In this document: piece after piece, positions 35 to 16,038 of the stretch
Layout of the letters: every line of letters starts with the position of its first letter
Numbering within the stretch: the first letter of the stretch is position 1
DNA from: Escherichia coli
GTDB lineage: Bacteria; Pseudomonadota; Gammaproteobacteria; Enterobacterales; Enterobacteriaceae
Length of the DNA stretch: 64,000 nt
Reading direction: 5' to 3' (one strand)
Assembly (NCBI RefSeq): GCF_030384885.1
Contig: NZ_CP128613.1
Program-made: the position numbers and the translations under genes
The notes under the pieces: model-generated
The model's database searches: none
The model's input: only the letters and a program-made list of their open reading frames with translations
Told to the model about the DNA's origin: nothing

Positions 35-2494
35 ATGGACACCGTGAATATTTATCGACTCTCTTTTGTATCCTGCCTGGTCATGGCGATGCCTTCCGCC
101 ATGGCGGTTGAATTCAACCTGAATGTCCTCGACAAATCGATGCGTGAGCGCATTGATATTTCATTATTAAAGGAAAAAGGTGTCATTGCTCCCGGTGAAT
201 ATTTTGTCAGCGTTGCGGTAAATAATAACCAAATTAGTAATGGGCAAAAAATTAACTGGCAAAAAAAGGGTGACACTACCATTCCGTGCATCAATGATTT
301 ATTGGTCGATAAGTTTGGCTTAAAACCCGAAGTCCGTCAGTCGTTACCTCTGATTAATCAGTGCGTCGATTTTAGCTCCCGACCAGAAATGCTCTTCAAT
401 TTTGATCAGGCCAGTCAGCAACTGAATATCACCATCCCACAGGCCTGGCTGGCGTGGCAGTCAGATAACTGGACTCCACCCTCCACATGGAAAGAAGGTG
501 TCCCCGGTGTCCTGATGGATTACAACTTGTTTGCCAGCAGCTACCGCCCACAGGATGGTAGCAACAGCACTAACCTGAACGCCTATGGAACAGCCGGAAT
601 TAACGCGGGAGCATGGCGTTTACGCAGTGATTACCAATTGAATCAGACCGATAGCGATGATAACCATGAACAGTCAGGCGAAATATCACGCACCTATCTT
701 TTTCGTCCATTACCGCAATTAGGTTCAAAATTAACCCTTGGTGAAACGGATTTCAGTTCCAATATTTTCGACGGCTTTTCTTATACCGGCGCGGCACTGG
801 CGAGTGACGACCGGATGTTACCGTGGGAACTGCGCGGCTACGCTCCACAAATTAGCGGTATTGCACAAACCAATGCCACGGTGACGATCAGTCAATCAGG
901 CCGCGTCATCTACCAGAAAAAAGTCCCGCCAGGCCCGTTTATCATTGATGACCTTAATCAGTCCGTCCAGGGTACGTTGGATGTCAAAGTGACGGAAGAA
1001 GATGGTCGGGTGAACAATTTCCAGGTTTCGGCAGCATCGACGCCTTTCCTTACGCGCCAGGGGCAGGTTCGCTATAAACTTGCTGCCGGTCAGCCGCGAA
1101 CATCTATGTCTCATCAAACTGAAAATGAAACCTTTTTTAGCAATGAAGTTTCCTGGGGGATGCTGTCAAATACCTCGCTGTACGGCGGCCTGCTGATTTC
1201 GGGTGATGACTACCATTCTGCCGCAATGGGTATCGGGCAAAATATGCTCTGGCTTGGTGCATTGTCGTTTGATGTCACCTGGGCCAGTAGTCAGTTTGAT
1301 ACTCAGCAGGACGAGCGGGGCTTAAGTTACCGCTTTAATTACAGCAAACAAGTGGATGCCACTAACAGCACGATTTCGCTCGCCGCTTATCGCTTCTCAG
1401 ATCGTCATTTTCACAGCTACGCCAACTATCTGGATCACAAATACAACGACAACGATGCGCAGGACGAAAAACAGACGATCAGCTTATCCGTGGGGCAACC
1501 GATTACCCCACTGAACCTCAATCTGTACGCCAACCTGCTGCATCAAACCTGGTGGAATGCAGACGCCTCCACGACCGCCAACATCACGGCGGGTTTTAAT
1601 GTTGATATTGGTAACTGGAGAGATATCTCGATCTCGACGTCATTCAATACAACCCATTACGAAGATAAAGATCGCGACAACCAGATTTACCTGTCGATTT
1701 CGCTTCCCTTCGGTAACGGTGGTCGGGTCGGTTATGACATGCAAAACAGTAGCCACAGCACCACACACCGCATGTCGTGGAACGATACGCTGGATGAACG
1801 AAATAGCTGGGGGATGTCTGCTGGACTACAATCCGACCGTCCGGACAATGGAGCCCAGGTGAGCGGTAACTATCAGCACCTGAGTTCAGCGGGTGAGTGG
1901 GATCTTTCTGGTACTTATGCTGCCAATGACTACAGTTCTGTTAGCAGCAGCTGGAGTGGTTCTTTCACGGCGACGCAATATGGTGCAGCCTTCCATCGCC
2001 GCAGCTCCACCAATGAACCACGCCTGATGGTCAGCACCGATGGCGTGGCAGATATTCCGGTTCAGGGCAATCTCGACTACACCAACCATTTTGGCATTGC
2101 AGTGGTACCGCTGGTTTCCAGTTATCAACCTTCCACCGTGGCCGTGAACATGAACGACTTACCCGACGGCGTGACGGTGACAGAAAACGTCATCAAAGAA
2201 ACGTGGATTGAAGGCGCAATAGGTTACAAATCACTGGCATCCCGTTCCGGTAAAGACATTAACGTTATCATTCGCAACGCCAGCGGTCAGTTCCCTCCCC
2301 TCGGTGCGGATATCCGTCAGGATGGCAGCAGCATTAGCGTGGGGATGGTTGGCGAGGAAGGACACGCCTGGTTAAGCGGAGTCGCTGAAAATCAAAAGTT
2401 TACCGTGGTCTGGGGTGATAGTCAGCGTTGCTCGATCCATCTTCCTGAACATATGGAAGACACCGCAAATCGCCTGATTTTACCTTGTCATTAA
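35..2494 (+). CDS. ybgQ: Fimbrial outer-membrane usher protein (chaperone-usher pathway)
   Basis: 819-aa ORF with N-terminal signal peptide (MDTVNIYRLSFVSCLVMAMPSAMA), usher-typical size, immediately followed by an overlapping PapD-like chaperone gene; synteny with ybgQPO next to abrB/nei. Confidence 0.8.
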   Translation: MDTVNIYRLSFVSCLVMAMPSAMAVEFNLNVLDKSMRERIDISLLKEKGVIAPGEYFVSVAVNNNQISNGQKINWQKKGDTTIPCINDLLVDKFGLKPEVRQSLPLINQCVDFSSRPEMLFNFDQASQQLNITIPQAWLAWQSDNWTPPSTWKEGVPGVLMDYNLFASSYRPQDGSNSTNLNAYGTAGINAGAWRLRSDYQLNQTDSDDNHEQSGEISRTYLFRPLPQLGSKLTLGETDFSSNIFDGFSYTGAALASDDRMLPWELRGYAPQISGIAQTNATVTISQSGRVIYQKKVPPGPFIIDDLNQSVQGTLDVKVTEEDGRVNNFQVSAASTPFLTRQGQVRYKLAAGQPRTSMSHQTENETFFSNEVSWGMLSNTSLYGGLLISGDDYHSAAMGIGQNMLWLGALSFDVTWASSQFDTQQDERGLSYRFNYSKQVDATNSTISLAAYRFSDRHFHSYANYLDHKYNDNDAQDEKQTISLSVGQPITPLNLNLYANLLHQTWWNADASTTANITAGFNVDIGNWRDISISTSFNTTHYEDKDRDNQIYLSISLPFGNGGRVGYDMQNSSHSTTHRMSWNDTLDERNSWGMSAGLQSDRPDNGAQVSGNYQHLSSAGEWDLSGTYAANDYSSVSSSWSGSFTATQYGAAFHRRSSTNEPRLMVSTDGVADIPVQGNLDYTNHFGIAVVPLVSSYQPSTVAVNMNDLPDGVTVTENVIKETWIEGAIGYKSLASRSGKDINVIIRNASGQFPPLGADIRQDGSSISVGMVGEEGHAWLSGVAENQKFTVVWGDSQRCSIHLPEHMEDTANRLILPCH

Positions 2495-2508
2495 TTAAGG
2501 AAATGAAA

Positions 2509-3240
2509 ATGACATTTATGAAAGGACTTCCCCTTTTGTTGTTGGTTACCAGTCTGTGTAGCCACGCTGCACTACAACCCGACCGCACTCGCATTGTGTT
2601 TAACGCTAATGATAAAGCTACCAGTCTGCGAGTAGATAATCGTAGCGATAAACTCCCCTACCTCGCTTATTCCTGGCTCGAAAATGAAAAAGGGGAGAAA
2701 AGCGACGATCTTCTGGTCGCCCTGCCACCGATACAACGTCTGGAACCGAAAGCAACAACGCAGGTGCGGATAGTCAAGCAAGCCTCGACCGCGAAATTAC
2801 CGGGCGATCGCGAAACGCTATTTTTCTACAATATGCGTGAAATTCCTCCCGCCCCGGAAAAAAACAGCGACCATGCCGTTCTGCAAGTCGCCATCCAGAG
2901 CCGTATCAAGGTGTTCTGGCGACCGTCTGCATTACGCAAGAAAGCAGGAGAAAAGGTCGAACTGCAGTTACAGGTCAGCCAGCAGGGCAATCAGCTTAGC
3001 TTAAAAAACCCTACTGGCTATTATCTGACCATCGCGTATCTTGGGCGAAATGAGCAAAGCGTTCTCCCGGGCTTCAAAACTGTGATGATTGCGCCTTTTA
3101 GTACAGTAAGCACAACCACTGGAAATTATAGTGGCAGCCAGTTTTATCTCGGTTATATGGATGATTATGGCGCATTACGCATGACAACGCTCAACTGTAA
3201 CGGGCAATGCCGTTTACAGGCTGTGGAGGCGAAGAAATGA
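2509..3240 (+). CDS. ybgP: Periplasmic fimbrial chaperone (PapD-like)
   Basis: ORF 2485..3240; PapD-family motifs ([40 protein letters not shown]), signal peptide; start placed at MTFMKG (2509) to give ~242 aa; overlaps usher stop. Confidence 0.8.
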
Positions 3241-4298
3241 GTGCTGGCAAGGGATTGTTGCTCATCATCTGTCTGTTATTTCTACCGTTAAAATCTGCGC
3301 TTGCCCTGAACTGTTACTTTGGTTCATCCGGTGGTTCGGTAGAAAAATCGGAATCTATTCAACCATTTGCTGTACCAGGGAATGCCAAACCCGGCGATAA
3401 GATCTGGGAGTCTGACGATATTAAAATTTCCGTCTATTGTGACAACAATACCAACGGCAACTTTGAGAGCGAGCATGTCTACGCCTGGGTAAACCCGTAC
3501 CCGGGAATTCAGGATCGCTATTATCAACTCGGCGTAACTTACAATGGTGTTGATTATGATGCTAACCAGGGAAAAAGCCGCATCGACACTAACCAGTGCA
3601 TCGACAGCAAAAACATTAATATTTATACCCCTGAGCAGATCATCGCGATGGGATGGCAGAACAAAATTTGCTCTGGTGATCCCAATAATATTCATATGTC
3701 GCGTACGTTTCTCGCTCGCATACGGTTATACGTCAAGATACGAGAGATACCGCCGCATGATTATCAAAGCACGCTCAGCGATTACATTGTGGTGCAATTT
3801 GATGGCGAAGGAAGCGTTAATGAGGACCCTACCGCCCAAAACCTGAAATATCATATTACCGGTCTGGAAAACATTCGGGTATTGGATTGCAGCGTCAATT
3901 TTTCTATTACCCCAGCCAACCAGGTCATTGATTTTGGTAAATTTAATGTACTGGATATCCGGCGACACAACATGACAAAAACATTCGGTATTAAAACGAC
4001 AAAATCACAAAACGATCAATGTACCGACGGATTCAAAGTCAGCTCTTCGTTTTATACCGAAGAAACGCTGGTTGAAGAAGATAAAGCATTGCTGATTGGC
4101 AATGGTCTGAAGCTACGTTTACTGGATGAAAACGCCTCGCCCTATACCTTCAACAAATACAGCGAATATGCCGACTTCACCAGTGACATGCTGATCTACG
4201 AAAAAACCTATACGGCTGAACTTTCGTCTATTCCCGGCACTCCCATTGAGGCTGGCTCCTTCGATACCGTGGTGCTTTTTAAGATTAACTATAACTAA
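3237..4298 (+). CDS. ybgO: Fimbrial-like adhesin/subunit protein
   Basis: ORF 3207..4298; start at ATG 3237 overlapping chaperone stop (ATGA); signal peptide [17 protein letters not shown]; last gene of chaperone-usher operon. Confidence 0.7.
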
Positions 4299-4448
4299 TT
4301 TCCCATGATGCCCTTTGCAACCGAAAGGGCATCTCTTTCAGAAAATTGCTGATTTTCCCCTTTTCCTTGATTGCTGTTATTTTTTCCTGGCCCGGCTTTC
4401 TTTATGCTGTATCGATACACCAAAGAGAAAATAATGAGGAAGCGAAGG

Positions 4449-5495
4449 ATGCCAGTTTTGCAGTGGGGAATGTTATGTGTGCTTTCACTTCTCCTTTCTA
4501 TTGGCTTCCTCGCGGTACATCTTCCGGCGGCACTATTACTTGGGCCAATGATCGCCGGAATCATCTTTAGTATGCGCGGAATTACTCTGCAACTTCCCCG
4601 ATCCGCTTTTCTCGCCGCCCAAGCCATTCTTGGCTGCATGATTGCGCAAAACCTCACTGGTTCGATTCTCACCACGCTAGCCGTTAACTGGCCGATTGTG
4701 CTAGCCATTTTACTCGTGACGTTACTTTCCAGCGCCATCGTGGGTTGGTTATTGGTGCGCTATAGCTCACTGCCTGGAAATACCGGTGCCTGGGGTTCTT
4801 CTCCTGGCGGCGCGGCGGCAATGGTCGCTATGGCGCAAGATTACGGCGCAGATATTCGCCTGGTGGCATTTATGCAATATCTGCGAGTGCTGTTCGTCGC
4901 GGGGGCCGCTGTTCTGGTCACCCGCATGATGCTGGGCGATAACGCTGAAGCGGTTAACCAGCAGATCGTCTGGTTCCCGCCAGTGAGCATTAATCTCCTG
5001 CTTACGATTTTGCTCGCGGTCGTTGCCGGTACGGCGGGATGCTTGCTACGTCTTCCTTCCGGCACGATGCTCATCCCGATGCTGGCGGGCGCAGTGCTCC
5101 AGTCTGGTCAGCTCATCACCATCGAACTACCAGAATGGCTGCTGGCGATGGCGTATATGGCAATTGGCTGGCGGATTGGTCTTGGTTTCGATAAGCAAAT
5201 CTTACTGCGGGCATTGCGCCCGCTGCCACAAATCTTGCTGTCGATTTTTGCTCTGCTGGCTATTTGTGCAGGTATGGCGTGGGGACTGACCCGGTTTATG
5301 CATATTGATTTTATGACTGCCTACCTCGCCACCAGTCCCGGCGGGCTTGATACCGTGGCGGTCATCGCCGCAGGGAGCAATGCCGATATGGCGCTTATTA
5401 TGGCGATGCAAACCCTACGCCTGTTCAGTATTTTGCTGACGGGGCCAGCCATTGCGCGGTTTATTTCAACCTATGCGCCGAAGCGGTCGGCCTAG
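4449..5495 (+). CDS. abrB: AbrB-family inner-membrane protein (putative regulator/transporter)
   Basis: ORF 4371..5495, polytopic hydrophobic protein; start chosen at MPVLQWGML (348 aa), alternative in-frame ATG at 4434. Confidence 0.75.
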
Positions 5496-6283
5496 TGCTG
5501 GCAGCCTGGACACCAGTAAAACGGGCGCGAGGACAACGTGGTTTTCTCAATGATGCTGCCACAACGTTCGCACGGTTCGCCATCACGATGAAAAACCTTA
5601 AAGCGAAACAGCGCCCCATGATGTTTATTCTCATCCACCTGCCCCCGCGTAGCGTAAGAAAGTCGAGGAATCTCCAGTAACGCGTGTGCGAGTGCATCCA
5701 GTTGCGCCGCATTGAGATCTTTCGCTTTATGATTGCCGGTTAACCCCACCTGCCAGAGGATCTCCACCCGCAAATAATTGCCAAGCCCAGCCAGAAACGC
5801 CTGATCGAGTAGTAATCCAGCAAACTGACGGTTACGAAAGCGCGGCGACAATAACCGTTCTTTCGCCACCTCCGGCGTCAGTTTCGGATCCAGCACATCG
5901 GGGCCAACGCGTTGTAAAAACGGATGCGTGGTCAGTTGTTCCGGGGTCAACATCTCAATATCCGAGGCGCTATAAAGCAGAATGGTTTTGTCAGCCGTTT
6001 GCAGTTTTACCCGCAATACTCGCGTGGTCTGCGGCTCTTCGCCGGTATCAACCACGCGCCAGACGCCGTAAAGCTGATTATGGCTGTAGAGCGTTAACCC
6101 GTTGGAAAAATGAGTTAACAACGCCTTACCTCGCGTTTCCACATGGGTAACGTGTTGACCGATAAGTTGTGATTGATAAGGTTTTAACTGCGGGAAGGCA
6201 AACCAGACATCAGTTAGAGGTTTGCCTTTGATCGCCGCCTCCAGGTTATCCGCTGCGCGGCGGATTTCCGGGCCTTCAGGCAT
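5492..6283 (-). CDS. nei: Endonuclease VIII (DNA glycosylase/AP lyase)
   Basis: ORF 5492..6511 contains [14 protein letters not shown]... (Fpg/Nei N-terminal PEGPE motif) and C-terminal zinc finger [25 protein letters not shown]; true start at ATG 6283 (263 aa). Confidence 0.9.
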
Positions 6284-6317
6284 GGTGATATCCTTTTTTT
6301 GTTCTTTTTTTGCGGGA

Positions 6318-7052
6318 TTATGCTGCGACAACAATCCCCTTTTTGGTAAATGTAGAGCGTAGTCGGCGGGCGAACGCCAGTGCGTGCTCGCCGTCGCCAT
6401 GCAGACAGACAGTCTGCACCGTGACCGTCGCCCATTCGCCGGTGATACTTTTGACTCTGCCGTGTTGCACCATCTCCAGCGTCTGCGCCAGCGCCTGTTC
6501 TTCGTTTTCAATCAACGCGCCAGGCTGACTTCGCGGTACCAGTGAGCCGTCAGCCTGATATCCGCGATCGGCAAATACTTCCTCGCGCGTTGTCAGGCCA
6601 TATTGCTTGCCTGCACGAATCAGCTCGCTTCCCGCCAGCCCGACGAGAATCAATGCCGGATCGCAAGCGTAAACTGCTCTGGCAATGGCGTCTGCCAGTT
6701 GTGCGTCTTTCGCCGCCTGGTTGTATAACATGCCGTGCGGTTTGACATGACGCATCACGCCGCCTTGCGCGCGAGCAATAGCGGCCAGCGCACCAATTTG
6801 ATACAGCGTTTGGGCGTAAACGGTTTCCGGCGGCAATTGCATGGCGCTACGGCCAAAATGTTCCCTGTCCGGAAAGCTCGGGTGAGCGCCAATGGCGACA
6901 CCATTTTGTATGGCATCACGCACGCAAGCCTGCATGGTTTGTGCATCGCCTGCATGAAATCCACAGGCAATATTGGCTGAGGAAACCAGCGTTAATAGCT
7001 CTGCGTCGCTGACACAGCCTTCGCCCAGATCGGCGTTCAGGTCAATTTTCAT
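6318..7052 (-). CDS. pxpA: 5-oxoprolinase subunit A (LamB/YcsF family)
   Basis: 244-aa ORF, LamB/YcsF-family sequence ([12 protein letters not shown]...), overlaps upstream pxpC stop; conserved ybgJKL cluster. Confidence 0.85.
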
Positions 7053-7974
7053 TGTGCAGCCGCCACGCTAATTGTTCGAAATAACGTTGCTGATCTTGCC
7101 GTGCTTTCAGTGCCTCTTCCAGTGAACACTGGACAAAATGAATCGGCTGACCGAGCGGAATTTGCGCCAGATGGTACATATCAGCCTCAATGATACAGGC
7201 AATACGCGGATAACCACCGGTGGTCTGTGCGTCGTTCATCAATACAATCGGCTGCCCGTTATGCGGCACCTGCACCACGCCCGGCAACAAACCATGAGAT
7301 AACAGTTCGCGATCGGTGGTGCGTTTTAAGATTTGCCCCTGTAGGCGATAGCCCATCCGGTTACTTTGCGGGCTAAGCTGCCAGGGCGAACGCCAGAATG
7401 CATCCTGCGAGGCGCGATCGAACTCATGATATTCCGGCCCCGGCAAGGCGCGAATGCGGTTGCCCCACAGCAGCTGTTTAACGCCCTGCGCTTCCATAAA
7501 ATCACGCTTCGATTTACCCATCGGGAGTCGGTCACCATCCTTCAGTAAACGGCCTTCCAGCCCACCAATCCCCACTTTGAGATCGGTACTGCATGACCCC
7601 ATTACCGGCGGAACATCAATACCACCCGCGACCGCCAGATAACTGCGCATCCCGTGCTGCGGGCGTTTAAGCGTTAAACGCTGGCCTGCTTTCATCGGCA
7701 ATCGCCAGCCAGTCCAGACGGCATTATCATCCAGCCGCGCTTCGCAACCTGCCCCCGTCAGGGCAAACCAACCATCAGTTTCGAACTCTACCGTTAACTG
7801 ACCGAGCGTTATCTCCAGCGCGGGGGCATTGGCGTCATTACCCACCAGCAGGTTAGCAATGCGTAACGCAGGCATATCCAGTGCGCCGCAGTGGCTGATA
7901 CCCGACTGGCGAAAACCGTGACGACCGCCATCCTGCACAGTAGTATACATGCCCGCACGAATAATCTTCAGCAT
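7042..7974 (-). CDS. pxpC: 5-oxoprolinase subunit C (allophanate hydrolase subunit 2-like)
   Basis: 310-aa ORF, overlaps pxpB and pxpA; conserved operon context. Confidence 0.85.
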
Positions 7975-12709: not shown

Positions 12710-13215
12710 AAAACTCCTGCATGGCGCAAGTTAATCACCCGCGGCCAAAGTTCGAAATAACGCTGCTCTGAAAGCCAGGCGTCAGGATAAAGCGCCATAT
12801 AGTGTTTGATACGCATCAGCGGCGCAAGAAGCGGTTGCTCGCCACGGCGATAACTGTCGATAAGCGCCGCCAGCTGCTGGCGTTCTGTGGAATCAATATG
12901 TGGGCGAAAATATCCCTGAACGTGCATCAAAACATTGGTGTGGTCACGTCGGTTGGCGGGGTGAGAAAGCAAAACAATTACGCGTTGGCGGTACTGGTTG
13001 TAATAGTCATCCAGATTTTGCCACTGGTGAATATCAGCCACAAACGGGCCAAGTTTGCGGTATTCCGGCTGGGAATGAGCCAGAAAGACGAGTTTATAGC
13101 GGCTGTGATAATCGTTGAGCGCCCCGCGCGTTAAGCCTCGCTCTTTAAGACGGTGTAACTCATGCAAAGCAAAAATGCGGATAAGGGTGCTGTCATCAAA
13201 AAGTTGTTGATTCAT
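12706..13215 (-). CDS. ybgA: DUF1722-family protein co-transcribed with photolyase
   Basis: 169-aa ORF immediately upstream of and overlapping phr start. Confidence 0.8.
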   Translation of the reverse strand: MNQQLFDDSTLIRIFALHELHRLKERGLTRGALNDYHSRYKLVFLAHSQPEYRKLGPFVADIHQWQNLDDYYNQYRQRVIVLLSHPANRRDHTNVLMHVQGYFRPHIDSTERQQLAALIDSYRRGEQPLLAPLMRIKHYMALYPDAWLSEQRYFELWPRVINLRHAGVL

Positions 13216-13412
13216 TACTACTCCTGGGCGGTTTACAGGAGTAAGTGTAGACGGCGGTACTGAAAAAACGAAACGAATAAATGATAACAGTAAAAAAATT
13301 CAATTATTCATAATAAATTTCATGGTGGCAAGAAATAGTTTCTTTTCTTCATCGCTCATGGCAGCAACGTTTAACATGTTGTCATCAAAATTATTGATGA
13401 TATTTTTTAATT

Positions 13413-13748
13413 TCAGTAACTGCAAAGGAGAAAAATAGTCACTCCGATGAGATTACTCAATACCAGCAATAGCTCCCCATCATATAAATAGCCCACCATA
13501 AGATTAATCTCTATCATCTCAATTGCTTTTTGTACAGCAAGCGCCGGTAAGATATTCTGACGAAGCATTTTGGCAATATCATTTTCATCCAGTTCATCGG
13601 GTGTTTTATCTAATAAAGAATTATACCAGTTTATTAAACCACTTTTGAAAGCGAACGAATCATATTGCAGGTGATAAATCTGTTTTAGGGTTTCTTTATT
13701 TTTCAATTTATAGTGCCTTTGTTTGCTATAATTTTTCTGAAATAACAT
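13413..13748 (-). CDS. Hypothetical small protein with hydrophobic C-terminus (island ORF 5)
   Basis: 111-aa ORF in AT-rich island; start overlaps stop of upstream ORF (TGATG), indicating translational coupling; no family recognised. Confidence 0.45.
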   Translation of the reverse strand: MLFQKNYSKQRHYKLKNKETLKQIYHLQYDSFAFKSGLINWYNSLLDKTPDELDENDIAKMLRQNILPALAVQKAIEMIEINLMVGYLYDGELLLVLSNLIGVTIFLLCSY

Positions 13749-14215
13749 CAGCGAGTTTGCTCAGGTGCAGGGATGACCGAAATTGTCATGTATTTTTTCA
13801 GTCTGGCTTCTCGTTTCACACCTTTCGGATCTGAACCAAAAGGAAGCGTCAAGCATGGTGAGTCAACGGTTTGGATTGTCCAGAGAGAATCACCAATGAA
13901 TCTGAAATTGATGCTATCCGCTGTAACGGATAATCCCTCAAAACTTCCCGTCGCATACTCATTACCCAAACGTACGGTCTCTTTAACTCCATCGTTAACA
14001 TCGATAAGGACAATTGTCAGTGATTCCTCAAAAATAACGTCATCCGTCAGAAAAAGGATATAACGCTGGTCATTAACCTGAATTGCCGCTTCCAGTATTT
14101 GCCCTGGTACAATAATACCTGTGTTATTGCCATTAAGCACAACGTCAGACTGAGCCTGAGATAAATCAGTCGCTTTGTGAACCTTGACCAACGATATCGA
14201 ATTAACCTGTTGCAT
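13748..14215 (-). CDS. Hypothetical protein (island ORF 4)
   Basis: ORF track gives 13748..14308 from a GTG; I prefer ATG at 14215 (MQQVNSISLV..., 155 aa) because the upstream part is better explained by a separate out-of-frame glycine-zipper ORF ending 2 nt before this ATG. Confidence 0.45.
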   Translation of the reverse strand: MQQVNSISLVKVHKATDLSQAQSDVVLNGNNTGIIVPGQILEAAIQVNDQRYILFLTDDVIFEESLTIVLIDVNDGVKETVRLGNEYATGSFEGLSVTADSINFRFIGDSLWTIQTVDSPCLTLPFGSDPKGVKREARLKKYMTISVIPAPEQTR

Positions 14216-14217
14216 AA

Positions 14218-14358
14218 TCAATTCCACAAGCGCCCCATTTCCCATGCGGCAAGTGCACCGCCGACAAAGCCGCCAATAAGTACGCAAACAGGTGCTCCTG
14301 GACCACACATCAATCCGGTCAACGCACCGCCTGCGACAGCACCGGCAATAATATTCAT
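14218..14358 (-). CDS. 46-aa double glycine-zipper transmembrane micropeptide (island ORF 3)
   Basis: My own translation of the minus strand: MNIIAGAVAGGALTGLMCGPGAPVCVLIGGFVGGALAAWEMGRLWN, stop TGA 2 nt before the next start; two GxxxG-type glycine zippers; not in ORF track (below length cutoff). Confidence 0.4.
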   Translation of the reverse strand: MNIIAGAVAGGALTGLMCGPGAPVCVLIGGFVGGALAAWEMGRLWN

Positions 14359-14541
14359 CCGGGTACGACTGCCAGTGGTTTTAACAGATTTACGCTCACC
14401 GTTACGTATCCTGCCACCACTCAGGTTGCAGACGCGGCAGTCACAGCCTTGACGGTGTTGAAACTAAAGTTCAGGTGATAGTCTGATGTTCATAGTTTGA
14501 GCATTATCCCCTGACAGAATCAAATCAAGCAGTGTCAATGA

Positions 14542-14799
14542 TCACGTGTATATATCATTTAAAGCATTATCAAGCCAATCTTCCATGTTTTTAATTTTAG
14601 CCCGCGCATATAAATCATTCATAACATCCTCATAACTCTGTCCATCATTGACCATACAATTAGCTGTATGAGGCAGAACATGTATAAAATCAGACAATAT
14701 AAAACAAGCCTTTGAATTTCCAGAGTTAGCTGCAATTCTGATATCAATCAATCCTCTGGCAATCAATTTAAGAATAACATCTTGCATTTTAATTTCCAT
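14542..14799 (-). CDS. Hypothetical small cytoplasmic protein, immunity-protein-like (island ORF 2)
   Basis: 85-aa ORF in AT-rich island, co-oriented with neighbours; no family recognised. Confidence 0.45.
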   Translation of the reverse strand: MEIKMQDVILKLIARGLIDIRIAANSGNSKACFILSDFIHVLPHTANCMVNDGQSYEDVMNDLYARAKIKNMEDWLDNALNDIYT

Positions 14800-14881
14800 A
14801 TCATCCAGTTAAATTTCAGTAGTAAATCGTCTATCAAAAAAAGATGAAATTAACATTCATAAATTTATTACAATATGAAAA

Positions 14882-15235
14882 TCAAAAATATACATCATCA
14901 GCTTCTACCGAAAACTCCATGGCTCCTAAGGCACCTAAATCAATACTAAATATAGTATCACTTTCCTTAGCACTCCCAACATAGATAAAATAGCCTAAAT
15001 CTCCGTCTTGACCTATCAAAAAATAGTCAGGTTCCACTTGTTGAATATCATATGTTTCATTTCTTTCAATAAGATCAGAATAGTTATATAAATATAATGT
15101 TTCGTGCTTCTTATTAGTTATTTCATAGGTCTCACTATCTTTAATTTCTTCTATCAAAAAACGTTTATACACTGGAGGAAACTTGATTGACATGTCAAAT
15201 TCAATTTTATTTATATATTCTATAATTTTATTCAT
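14882..15235 (-). CDS. SUKH/SMI1-KNR4-like immunity-type protein (island ORF 1)
   Basis: 117-aa ORF; FPPVYKRFLIEE ... YFLIGQDGDLGYFIYVG resembles the SMI1/KNR4 (SUKH-1) pattern (aromatic/Pro N-terminal motif plus GxDGxGxxxY) seen in polymorphic-toxin immunity proteins; assignment by eye only. Confidence 0.5.
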   Translation of the reverse strand: MNKIIEYINKIEFDMSIKFPPVYKRFLIEEIKDSETYEITNKKHETLYLYNYSDLIERNETYDIQQVEPDYFLIGQDGDLGYFIYVGSAKESDTIFSIDLGALGAMEFSVEADDVYF

Positions 15236-15469
15236 GTTAAGAATACCTGAAAGATTATTTATTGATTATCTTGATGAATATATCTTCACTTTTTATTTTC
15301 ATTTACTCATCGCGGAAATACACATTGCCTTGTAGACAAGCGCTAATAATACGTTATGAACCTGACTTCCGCCAGACAATCAATCTATGAATTCATTACG
15401 CCGTAGTGTTTTAGAAAGACACTTTCTGACCAGATGGTGAACCATATACTACATCGCGCATTATAAAAA

Positions 15470-15505
15470 AACCGCCAGCGTTTCCACTAGCGGTTTTCAA
15501 TGTTT
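15470..15505. terminator. Putative bidirectional hairpin downstream of ybfA
   Basis: aaaaaaaccgccagcgtttccactagcggtttt: short GC stem flanked by A-run and T-run. Confidence 0.4.
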
Positions 15506-15519
15506 TCAAAACTCAGCAA

Positions 15520-15726
15520 TCAGTAAAAATCACCGGTTGCCTTTTCGGCCTGATCCATCCACACCGGCTTATCGCTGGTTTTCGACCAGACGCGATGCAG
15601 GTAGCTGTAAAAGCGGGCGCGGTCTTTCCAGAAAAGCATGAAAGGCAGCGCCAAAACGCCCGCTGCAACCGCATAAGTACGGCGTAAAAAGATAAGCCAT
15701 GCAGGATATTCTCTGTAGAGTTCCAT
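15520..15726 (-). CDS. ybfA: DUF2517-family small protein
   Basis: 68-aa ORF ([35 protein letters not shown]...), divergent from kdpF. Confidence 0.8.
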
Positions 15727-15937
15727 ACTTTTCTCCCCCTTTTGTATCTACCCGGTGAATGGCACCGGAAAAATGAATTTGTTTATCTGATGAAAATAGT
15801 ACCGCCTTTTGTGTAATTTTACTACTCATCCGACCACTTATTTTTGCTTATTGATGGTTTATTTACATTCATCGTGTAATTAAGTTACATGAAAGTTAAA
15901 TTAATACTAAACATTAGTTAAATCATGGCTTTTGCCA

Positions 15938-15956
15938 TTTTTATACTTTTTTTACA
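15938..15956 (+). promoter_or_regulatory. KdpE operator (direct-repeat half sites) in kdpFABC promoter
   Basis: tttttatactttttttaca about 80 bp upstream of kdpF start; matches the described KdpE-binding direct repeat TTTATA-N-TTTACA. Confidence 0.65.
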
Positions 15957-16038
15957 CCCCACCCGCAGATTTTTGCGAAATCTTTGCAGCCAGAATTCTA
16001 CCCTTCCGGTATCACTTTTAGGCCACTGGAGGTGCACT

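What the first reader, a model, noticed from the sequence alone, without database searches (positions are those of the whole stretch)
14218..14358. Unannotated 46-aa double glycine-zipper micropeptide coupled to downstream ORFs
Hand translation gives MNIIAGAVAGGALTGLMCGPGAPVCVLIGGFVGGALAAWEMGRLWN: two GxxxG/AxxxG glycine-zipper helices and a short charged tail. Its stop sits 2 nt before the ATG of the 155-aa ORF, whose stop in turn overlaps the 111-aa ORF start. The ORF track instead extends the 155-aa ORF from a GTG across this region in another frame, so the peptide would be missed by standard calling. Such peptides are typical of membrane-active small toxins or accessory pore/immunity subunits. 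Weaknesses: poor SD, and the frame stays open upstream to a TAG at ~14466 without another ATG, so it could be the decayed C-terminus of a larger gene.
Basis: seen in the sequence. Interest (0 to 1): 0.6.

Follow-up and report, generated by a model that had tools for sequence, protein, structure and literature searches.

The report
Toxin-gene stump beside orphan immunity gene
The 46-codon reading frame is real, but it is most likely the leftover tail of a bacterial-warfare toxin gene that a mobile element cut off, sitting in front of the still-intact antidote gene; this kind of leftover is common, although the toxin family itself has not been described.

Summary
The ORF exists exactly as described: window 14358..14218, minus strand, 46 aa, with a TGA 2 nt before the ATG of the 155-aa ORF.

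It is a chimera, not an evolved micropeptide gene.
- Its ATG and first three or four codons (MNII) come from an internal fragment of an IS630-family transposase gene. An internally deleted IS630 remnant occupies 14552..14348.
- Codons 4-46 are the last 43 codons of a ~225-residue all-helical toxin domain. That domain ends in a transmembrane helix followed by a double glycine-zipper hairpin.

The toxin domain is widespread in Proteobacteria (567 relatives). It has no Pfam or NCBIfam model. Some members carry an N-terminal type VI secretion PAAR domain, and one lies next to VgrG.

In 66 of 80 genomes the toxin gene is followed directly by a homologue of the 155-aa ORF. That protein is a soluble all-beta protein and I infer it is the cognate immunity protein.

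In this E. coli the 810-bp block (IS remnant, toxin stump, immunity gene) sits in an array of immunity genes between ybfA and ybgA. K-12 carries rhsC at this site. The block is present in 13 of 5,426 complete E. coli genomes and in E. fergusonii.

The long GTG-started 186-aa frame is not coding. Expression of the stump cannot be excluded, but nothing supports it.

The parts
14218..14358 (-). 46-codon chimeric ORF. Codons 1-3/4 (MNII) derive from an IS630-family transposase. Codons 4-46 plus the stop are the 3' end of a glycine-zipper toxin gene.
   Evidence: ORF list. Similarity to the IS630 transposase runs to 14348. Similarity to toxin genes starts at 14350. Protein relatives reach E 2e-19.
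14218..14350 (-). Toxin-gene stump: the last 43 codons, covering half of one helix and the final helix of the glycine-zipper hairpin, plus the TGA.
   Evidence: blastn identity is 88% to L005, 81% to L003 and 94% to L025. It corresponds to residues 198-240 of the modelled 240-aa toxin, whose helices are at 183-212 and 217-239.
14425..14552 (-). Left end of an IS630-family element. It includes the transposase start (ATG 14493) and 9 codons, MNIRLSPEL, closed by TAG 14466..14464. A 12-nt deletion is present relative to intact copies.
   Evidence: blastn gives 76% identity to Pantoea dispersa plasmid L023 901-1040 and 86% to Serratia plasmid L024 901-987. The transposase is annotated in L023.
14348..14427 (-). 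Internal fragment of the same transposase gene, about codons 178-204 (...LSGGRIRNGERKSVKTTGSRTRMNII). It is joined to the left-end piece by a ~450-bp internal deletion, and it supplies the ATG of the 46-aa ORF.
   Evidence: blastn gives 82-86% identity to L023 1491-1570 and L024 1494-1573. The L023 transposase translation reads ...KLSGGWIRRGERKPVKTIGSRTRMNIIGAL.... NCBI's annotation pipeline places its pseudogene at 14424..14305.
13748..14215 (-). 155-aa ORF, inferred to be the cognate immunity protein of the toxin. It is soluble and all-beta, and the gene is intact.
   Evidence: A homologue lies directly downstream of the toxin gene in 66 of 80 genome loci and in all six loci aligned. The AF2 model has pLDDT 91.3 with 12 strands. 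No signal peptide was apparent by eye; one 19-residue window (53-71) just reaches the 1.6 hydropathy threshold, and there is no sustained hydrophobic segment. On this lineage it shows 6 synonymous and 2 non-synonymous changes.
13741..14550 (-). 810-bp block (IS630 remnant, toxin stump, immunity gene). It is absent from the common E. coli version of this locus, which has 8 bp here instead.
   Evidence: blastn against L002 and the junction sequences. The block is present in 13 of 5,426 complete E. coli genomes and in E. fergusonii.
13413..13706 (-). Neighbouring CdiI_3-family immunity gene, starting at TTG 13706. Here it is truncated by a 1-nt deletion near 13445. The 111-aa ORF from ATG 13748 is a mechanical extension across the insertion junction.
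   Evidence: RefSeq annotation, PF18616 on intact copies, and the indel against L007.
14542..14799 (-). 85-aa gene of unknown family. Its 3' end is replaced by the start of the insertion; the gene is 90 aa in genomes without it.
   Evidence: No Pfam match.
14882..15235 (-). 117-aa SMI1/KNR4 (SUKH)-type protein, a family typical of immunity-gene arrays.
   Evidence: Pfam PF09346 at E 1.6e-4. Some RefSeq records name it SMI1/KNR4.

Best explanation
The 46-codon ORF is an accidental chimera left by gene decay.

The parent operon. A two-gene operon encodes a ~225-residue toxin domain and, 2 nt after its stop, a ~155-aa immunity protein. In the AF2 model the toxin domain is a soluble helical part, then a transmembrane helix, then a double glycine-zipper hairpin.

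What happened here. The operon sits next to an IS630-family insertion sequence. Deletions removed most of the IS and the first ~200 codons of the toxin gene. They joined transposase codon ~204 in frame to toxin codon ~198. The surviving frame therefore begins at a transposase methionine (…SRTRMNII) and ends with the toxin's last 43 codons.

What is still a working gene. I infer that only the immunity gene is. It is kept, together with SUKH-type and CdiI-type immunity genes, in the ybfA-ybgA interval where other strains carry rhsC. I infer that it protects the cell against neighbours that deliver the intact toxin by type VI secretion.

How the intact toxin probably works (inferred). It inserts its hydrophobic C-terminal helices into the target's inner membrane and dissipates the membrane potential. 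The soluble immunity protein would neutralise it by binding.

Shown: the chimeric anatomy, the family, the toxin-immunity pairing, and the PAAR and VgrG links. Inferred: pore formation, immunity function, and lack of expression of the stump.
For: 1. Toxin homology starts at 14350, 8 nt after the ATG.
2. Window 14552..14425 and 14427..14348 match two separate parts of IS630-family elements at 76-86% identity. The second piece carries the '…GSRTRMNII' codons. NCBI's annotation pipeline independently calls a partial IS630 transposase pseudogene in this frame.
3. Relatives of the peptide extend N-terminally into 'GRGLIVLSIAISVYEIY…DDKVSESGRQIAINGAGIAG' and further.
4. A reconstructed 240-aa toxin finds 567 relatives, 72 of them at E<=1e-30. 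Typically they are 230-530 aa with the domain at the C-terminus.
5. 80 genome loci were recovered, most with intact single ORFs.
6. PAAR fusions: Pfam E 1.7e-17 and NCBIfam T6SS_PAAR_dom E 8e-44, above the curated cut-off. A VgrG gene (E 2e-139) lies next to the toxin gene in a Serratia genome.
7. A homologue of the 155-aa protein lies directly downstream in 66 of 80 loci and aligns over its full length.
8. The 2-nt stop-to-ATG spacing is inherited from intact operons.
9. The block is an 810-bp insertion in an immunity-gene array at the rhsC site of K-12.
10. On this lineage the stump shows 3 non-synonymous and 2 synonymous changes, against 2 and 6 for the immunity gene.
11. No Shine-Dalgarno sequence precedes ATG 14358.
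12. Orphan toxin fragments with expressed immunity genes, some disrupted by IS elements, are documented for CDI and Rhs loci (PMC3150448).
Against: - The frame is intact, with no stop or frameshift, in all 9 Escherichia copies compared. These are >=98.5% identical (>=98.9% over the 901-bp block), so this carries little weight.
- The stump has an ATG and is positioned for translational coupling to the immunity gene, so some translation is possible.
- Glycine-zipper segments alone carry the toxicity of some toxins (TelE, EsxX).
- The immunity role of the 155-aa protein rests only on gene order and co-occurrence. A soluble immunity protein is atypical for the T6SS pore-formers whose immunity proteins I checked (Ssp6, Ssp4, Tse5), which have membrane-bound ones.
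- The substitution counts are too small to be significant.
- The order of events cannot be reconstructed (IS insertion, deletions, arrival at this locus).
Confidence: 0.85

Rival explanations
1. The chimeric ORF is translated, and the 46-aa glycine-zipper hairpin acts in the membrane. It could be a weak toxin held in check by the 155-aa protein, forming an addiction-like pair. Alternatively it could be an accessory partner or decoy that stabilises the immunity protein.
For: - The frame is intact with an ATG in all Escherichia copies.
- Only 2 nt separate its stop from the immunity ATG.
- Two hydrophobic glycine-zipper helices are retained.
- In EsxX the glycine zipper is the toxic part, and a soluble protein (ExiB) neutralises it by binding that zipper in the cytoplasm (PMC12744356). 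The 155-aa protein here is also soluble.
Against: - There is no Shine-Dalgarno sequence.
- The ATG is an accident of a transposase fragment.
- The peptide lacks the family's preceding transmembrane helix and the whole N-terminal domain.
- It occurs in only one near-identical insertion.
- Three of its five lineage-specific changes are amino-acid replacements in the first zipper helix.
Confidence: 0.08
2. The stump is kept as a cis element, not as a peptide. Its 3' end carries the ribosome-binding region of the immunity gene, and translation through it, or transcription from the IS630 end, helps to express that gene.
For: - The toxin stop and immunity ATG spacing, and the preceding bases (TGGAATTGATTATG), are conserved between the window and the intact operon in L005.
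- The IS left end, with the transposase start region, lies directly upstream in the same orientation.
- Orphan immunity genes are expressed by read-through in E. coli EC93 (PMC3150448).
Against: - Only the last ~20 nt would be needed for a ribosome-binding site.
- Promoter-like matches in the region are no more frequent than in shuffled sequence: 11 found against 10.0 +/- 3.3 expected.
- This idea is compatible with the main explanation rather than opposed to it.
Confidence: 0.25
3. The true gene is the 186-aa GTG-started ORF (14308..13748), which runs across the region in another frame, and the 46-codon frame is noise.
For: The long ORF is present in the mechanical list here and in relatives L005 (186 aa) and L003 (200 aa).
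Against: - Over the shared stretch, changes against L005 are 1 synonymous and 15 non-synonymous in that frame, compared with 13 and 3 in the 46-codon frame. Counts by codon position are 2, 1 and 14.
- The 155-aa protein starts at the conserved ATG in six divergent loci.
- RefSeq uses the ATG.
- The extension stays open only because the glycine- and alanine-rich codons contain no stops when read in the other frame (inference).
Confidence: 0.01

Closest known systems
Orphan toxin-fragment / immunity modules of polymorphic toxin loci (orphan cdiA-CT/cdiI and Rhs-CT/rhsI; Poole et al. 2011, PMC3150448)
   Same: A 5'-truncated toxin gene fragment without proper initiation signals is followed directly by an intact cognate immunity gene. 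The pair lies in an array with other immunity genes at an Rhs-type locus. IS elements are involved in the disruption.
   Different: The parent toxin is not a CdiA or Rhs tip and has no VENN or PxxxxDPxGL boundary. The fragment keeps only 43 codons, far less than a whole toxin domain, so it cannot be 're-loaded' as a functional toxin. Its start codon comes from a transposase.
T6SS membrane-depolarising, pore-forming effectors (Ssp6, Ssp4, Tse4, Tse5-CT, Tke5)
   Same: The parent family is linked to T6SS by PAAR fusions and a neighbouring VgrG. It is small and helical with hydrophobic C-terminal helices. A small immunity gene lies directly downstream.
   Different: There is no match to any Pfam or NCBIfam model or to any solved structure by sequence or fold. 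I could not compare sequences with Ssp6, Ssp4 or Tke5 directly. The immunity proteins I checked (Ssp6, Ssp4, Tse5) are membrane proteins; this one is a soluble all-beta protein. Pore formation by this family is untested.
T7SS glycine-zipper toxins TelE / EsxX with the soluble immunity protein ExiB (TipE) (PMC12744356, PMC10434224)
   Same: A C-terminal extended glycine zipper serves as the membrane-active part. A soluble, cytoplasmic neutralising protein is encoded next to the toxin.
   Different: The secretion system and phylum differ (LXG/T7SS in Firmicutes). I detected no sequence relationship. ExiA and ExiB are DUF5085 proteins, whereas the 155-aa protein has no Pfam match and its model resembles partial beta-propeller blades. 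The resemblance is an analogy only.
IS630-family insertion sequences
   Same: The left terminal region, the transposase start and an internal transposase segment are 76-86% identical to annotated IS630-family elements. The left end abuts a TA in the host sequence.
   Different: Only about 205 bp remain. There is a ~450-bp internal deletion, a 12-nt deletion and a stop codon, and the whole 3' part with the right end is missing. The element is dead.

Membership tests
Orphan toxin-remnant + immunity module (polymorphic toxin systems) | The fragment is homologous to the C-terminus of full-length toxins found elsewhere | tested here: met
   Codons 4-46 correspond to residues 198-240 of a 240-aa toxin, with 94% nucleotide identity to the intact locus L025.
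Orphan toxin-remnant + immunity module (polymorphic toxin systems) | The cognate immunity gene lies directly downstream, and the pairing is conserved with intact toxins | tested here: met
   66 of 80 genome loci have the homologue immediately after the toxin gene. Six loci align at 29-74% identity.
Orphan toxin-remnant + immunity module (polymorphic toxin systems) | The fragment lacks its own translation initiation signals | tested here: inconclusive
   There is no Shine-Dalgarno sequence, but an ATG supplied by the transposase fragment is present.
Orphan toxin-remnant + immunity module (polymorphic toxin systems) | It lies in a toxin or immunity gene array | tested here: met
   The neighbours are a SUKH-type gene and a CdiI_3 gene. 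The interval holds rhsC in K-12.
Orphan toxin-remnant + immunity module (polymorphic toxin systems) | The immunity protein neutralises the toxin | not testable with these tools
   This needs co-expression or competition assays.
T6SS effector (parent toxin family) | Fusion to, or genetic linkage with, PAAR, VgrG or Hcp | tested here: met
   PAAR is fused in P0041, L053 and L055. VgrG is adjacent in Serratia locus L087. Many members stand alone with no T6SS gene in the flanks examined.
T6SS effector (parent toxin family) | T6SS-dependent secretion and killing | not testable with these tools
   Experimental test required.
Pore-forming colicin / Ntox25 / other catalogued membrane toxin domains | Match to the family's sequence profile or solved fold | tested here: not met
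Stand-alone small membrane protein / micropeptide gene | Conserved as an independent short ORF in diverged lineages | tested here: not met
   The 46-aa form exists only in one Escherichia insertion, whose copies are >=98.5% identical. All other relatives are long proteins or different truncations.
Stand-alone small membrane protein / micropeptide gene | Own ribosome-binding site and start codon of native origin | tested here: not met
   There is no SD, and the ATG is transposase codon ~201.
Stand-alone small membrane protein / micropeptide gene | Purifying selection acting since it became a short ORF | tested here: inconclusive
   There are 3 non-synonymous and 2 synonymous changes on this lineage, too few to judge.
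IS630-family insertion sequence (the upstream 205 bp) | Terminal sequence and transposase coding sequence similar to annotated IS630 elements | tested here: met
   76-86% identity to two pieces of elements in Pantoea, Serratia and Klebsiella plasmids.

The most novel reading that the evidence does not exclude
Fusing a transposase methionine to the toxin's glycine-zipper hairpin created, by accident, a new expressed 46-aa membrane peptide. The soluble 155-aa protein binds it, as ExiB binds the EsxX zipper. The pair would then behave as a newly born toxin-antitoxin or addiction module, which would explain why the stump is retained intact in both E. coli and E. fergusonii.
Probability: 0.06. Interest if true: 0.6.

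Novelty: new member of a known kind. Interest (0 to 1): 0.27.

Why it matters
For genome annotation, this is a clear case where a tidy, 'coupled' small ORF is a pseudogene stump. The correct labels are: toxin fragment, IS630 remnant, and orphan immunity gene.

The by-product is more useful than the ORF itself.
- The parent toxin domain is widespread in Proteobacteria: 567 relatives, some fused to PAAR.
- Its invariable ~155-aa soluble all-beta partner has no Pfam or NCBIfam model either.
- I found no characterised member of either family in the libraries I searched.

A T6SS-linked membrane-type toxin with a cytoplasmic-looking immunity protein would be an interesting pair to test. The E. coli and E. 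fergusonii orphan copy suggests which gut strains might resist it.

Tried and rejected
- Pfam, NCBIfam, PADLOC and PHROGs scans of the peptide, the reconstructed toxin and the neighbouring ORFs gave nothing informative. The exceptions were weak PHROG hits to the glycine-zipper regions of tail lysins and tape-measure proteins.
- PDB sequence searches for the toxin and the immunity protein found nothing.
- Rfam found no RNA family in 13000-16000.
- The promoter and terminator scan was no better than shuffled sequence.
- A MAFFT alignment suggested that 14359-14541 might be a heavily deleted toxin 5' region. I rejected this: blastn found no significant similarity, and the stretch turned out to be IS630 sequence.
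- I considered membership of the Ssp6 family and set it aside. Ssp6 immunity proteins are small two-TM proteins and the family is restricted to Enterobacteriaceae. No direct sequence comparison was possible.
- dN/dS among the Escherichia copies has no power, because they are >=98.5% identical.
- The first genome-wide locus search, using the broad alignment, failed for lack of a conserved stretch. A narrower alignment worked.
- tblastn of the toxin against plasmids found one hypothetical protein only.

Full report
**Setting.** The window is E. coli chromosome and is 100% identical to strain 2013C-4282 over the region. The finding lies on the minus strand between ybfA (next to kdpFABC) and ybgA-phrB. 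In K-12 this interval holds the rhsC element. Here it holds a row of small same-strand genes:
- a 117-aa SMI1/KNR4 (SUKH) protein (Pfam E 1.6e-4);
- an 85-aa protein with no family;
- the 46-codon ORF;
- a 155-aa ORF;
- a CdiI_3-family immunity gene.

The ORF is at 14358..14218 with the stated translation. Its TGA ends 2 nt before the ATG (14215) of the 155-aa ORF. The frame is open for 35 more codons up to TAG 14466..14464, with no other start codon. There are five GxxxG motifs in two hydrophobic blocks separated by CGPGAP. No Shine-Dalgarno sequence precedes the ATG.

'Unannotated' is only partly right. One RefSeq record annotates the ORF as hypothetical protein WP_157943798.1, and E. fergusonii records also call it. 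The identical-sequence record marks 14424..14305, in the same frame, as a partial 'IS630 family transposase' pseudogene.

**The peptide is the tail of a larger protein family.** A search with the open frame found 40 proteins at E down to 2e-19. Apart from the two 46-aa Escherichia forms, the close relatives are mostly 74-141 aa. They continue N-terminally into a hydrophobic helix and beyond: '…SAGKSNPxVN…LSRxGRGLIVLSIAISVYEIY..DDKVSESGRQIAINGAGIAG…'.

In three contexts these proteins followed a second upstream ORF in the +1 frame. Joining the two gives a ~240-aa protein. That reconstruction found 567 relatives (72 at E<=1e-30) among 1.84 billion representatives. They are typically 230-530 aa and matched over ~225 residues at their C-terminus. 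A genome scan returned 80 loci across Gamma-, Beta- and Alphaproteobacteria and a few other lineages, most with intact single ORFs. AFDB holds intact enterobacterial members, such as Erwinia tasmaniensis B2VEE3 at 80% identity.

The AlphaFold2 model is confident (pLDDT 87.7) and all-helical. Its helices at 149-179, 183-212 and 217-239 form the hydrophobic end. The E. coli ORF keeps only residues 198-240 of that numbering.

**What the family is.** It has no Pfam, NCBIfam or PADLOC model. It has no relative in the PDB by sequence or by fold. UniProt names its members 'uncharacterized' or 'glycine zipper family protein'.

N-terminal extensions include PAAR (Pfam E 1.7e-17; NCBIfam T6SS_PAAR_dom E 8e-44, above cut-off), PG_binding_1 and Phage_Mu_F. 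In a Serratia genome a VgrG gene (E 2e-139) lies about 700 bp away. This is the behaviour of a polymorphic toxin domain that is delivered, at least in part, by type VI secretion. The membrane-active, pore-forming mode of action is my inference from the transmembrane helix and glycine zipper. It rests on analogy with Ssp6, Ssp4, Tse5 and the T7SS zipper toxins, not on any homology.

A soluble immunity protein differs from the membrane immunity proteins of Ssp6, Ssp4 and Tse5. It recalls instead ExiB, which sequesters the EsxX zipper in the cytoplasm. That is an analogy, not a tested relationship.

**Where the ATG comes from.** Similarity to toxin genes begins at window 14350, 8 nt after the ATG. 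The 190 bp upstream matched IS630-family elements on plasmids, in two pieces.
- Window 14552..14425 is the element's left end. It contains the transposase start (ATG 14493), followed by MNIRLSPEL and then a TAG created beside a 12-nt deletion.
- Window 14427..14348 is an internal transposase segment that reads …LSGGRIRNGERKSVKTTGSRTRMNII. The intact Pantoea copy reads …KLSGGWIRRGERKPVKTIGSRTRMNIIGAL….

So the ORF's Met-Asn-Ile(-Ile) and the open frame upstream are transposase sequence. They are joined in frame to toxin codon ~198, and this explains the RefSeq pseudogene label. The ORF is an IS630::toxin chimera produced by deletions.

**How the block sits in the chromosome.** Compared with the common E. 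coli form of the locus, 14550..13741 (810 bp) replaces 8 bp. The common form is the one seen in 157 of the 170 genomes that matched. The left edge of the block is the IS end at a TA. The right edge lies 7 nt after the immunity stop codon.

The insertion clips the 3' end of the 85-aa gene. It also creates the ATG of the mechanical 111-aa ORF; the CdiI_3 gene really starts at TTG 13706.

The block occurs in 13 of 5,426 complete E. coli genomes and at the same site in many E. fergusonii. All copies are >=98.5% identical (>=98.9% over the 901-bp block). In Enterobacter the same toxin is truncated differently, in one case by an adjacent IS3-family element, again leaving the immunity gene intact.

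**Which frame is coding, and is the stump under selection?** Over the 43 toxin-derived codons, the window differs from L005 by 13 synonymous and 3 non-synonymous codon changes, with counts by codon position of 2, 1 and 14. In the frame of the GTG-extended 186-aa ORF the same changes score 1 synonymous and 15 non-synonymous. The 186-aa call is therefore wrong, and the zipper frame was the selected one in the intact toxin.

I polarised changes using L025 and L005. The Escherichia lineage has 3 replacements (A8V, M13L, A14T, all in the first zipper helix) against 2 silent changes in the stump. The immunity gene has 2 replacements against 6 silent changes. This pattern is what relaxed constraint on the stump and continued constraint on the immunity gene would give, but the counts are too small to be significant.

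**Verdict.** The ORF is the decayed C-terminus of a larger toxin gene, given a start codon by chance from a dead IS630 element. It sits next to an orphan immunity gene in an immunity-gene array.

This is a known kind of arrangement (PMC3150448), although it involves a toxin-immunity family that has not been described. Translation of the stump cannot be excluded. I put the chance that it has a function of its own at roughly 6-8%.

Noticed in passing
window 13300-13706 (minus strand): The CdiI_3-family immunity gene carries a 1-nt deletion near 13445 relative to E. coli EC42405, where it is 135 aa. Here this gives a 97-aa truncated product plus a leftover 41-aa ORF (13425..13300).
   Followed up: partly
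L005 1158-1165; L003 7995-8001; L006 ~6620-6640: Stand-alone toxin genes in three unrelated loci are split by +1 frameshifts. Two are at homopolymeric A runs (A8, A7), and two fall in the same 'KSEGK' linker between the soluble and membrane halves. These could be pseudogenes, sequencing errors or slippage-controlled expression. Most of the 80 genome loci are intact.
   Followed up: partly
toxin model md9800ad2d952: Foldseek hits at E 1e-7 to 1e-6 include regions of large fungal proteins (Clonostachys, Orbilia, Epichloe, Sodiomyces). One bacterial hit is named 'Channel forming colicins domain-containing protein' (Pluralibacter gergoviae A0AAI9GKQ2, 32% identity). Possible distant kinship with other membrane-targeting domains was not examined.
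   Followed up: no
L028 (Tatumella morbirosei) 1359-7674: Four tandem pairs lie just upstream of the intact toxin-immunity pair. Each pair is a ~280-aa YPO3983-family protein (TIGR03034, E 5e-118) and a ~155-aa protein with a hydrophobic N-terminus. One such pair also lies downstream of the toxin in L025. This looks like another effector-immunity array.
   Followed up: partly
L007 (E. coli EC42405), equivalent to window 14341-14296: Seven substitutions cluster in ORF46 codons 6-21, while the rest of the 900-bp block has three. They make that copy Enterobacter-like (…AMAGLV…), which suggests a short recombination tract.
   Followed up: partly
window 14305-14424: The RefSeq 'IS630 family transposase' partial pseudogene interval runs about 45 nt past the true end of transposase similarity (14348), into toxin-derived sequence. 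The label is right for its upstream part and wrong for its downstream part.
   Followed up: yes
reconstructed toxin, residues 87-231: There are weak PHROG matches to a phage tail-associated lysin family (phrog_1047, E 2.4e-6) and to a tape-measure family. They probably reflect shared glycine-zipper and transmembrane segments.
   Followed up: no
L009 (Enterobacter) 4850-6252; L010/L011 5143-6252: Enterobacter carries an independent truncation of the same toxin: an 83-aa ORF with an unrelated N-terminus, 'MMPHSVSETWRRNGGRALKMRK…'. In one genome it lies directly after an IS3-family transposase, and in others after an integrase fragment. In every case the 155-aa gene is intact.
   Followed up: partly
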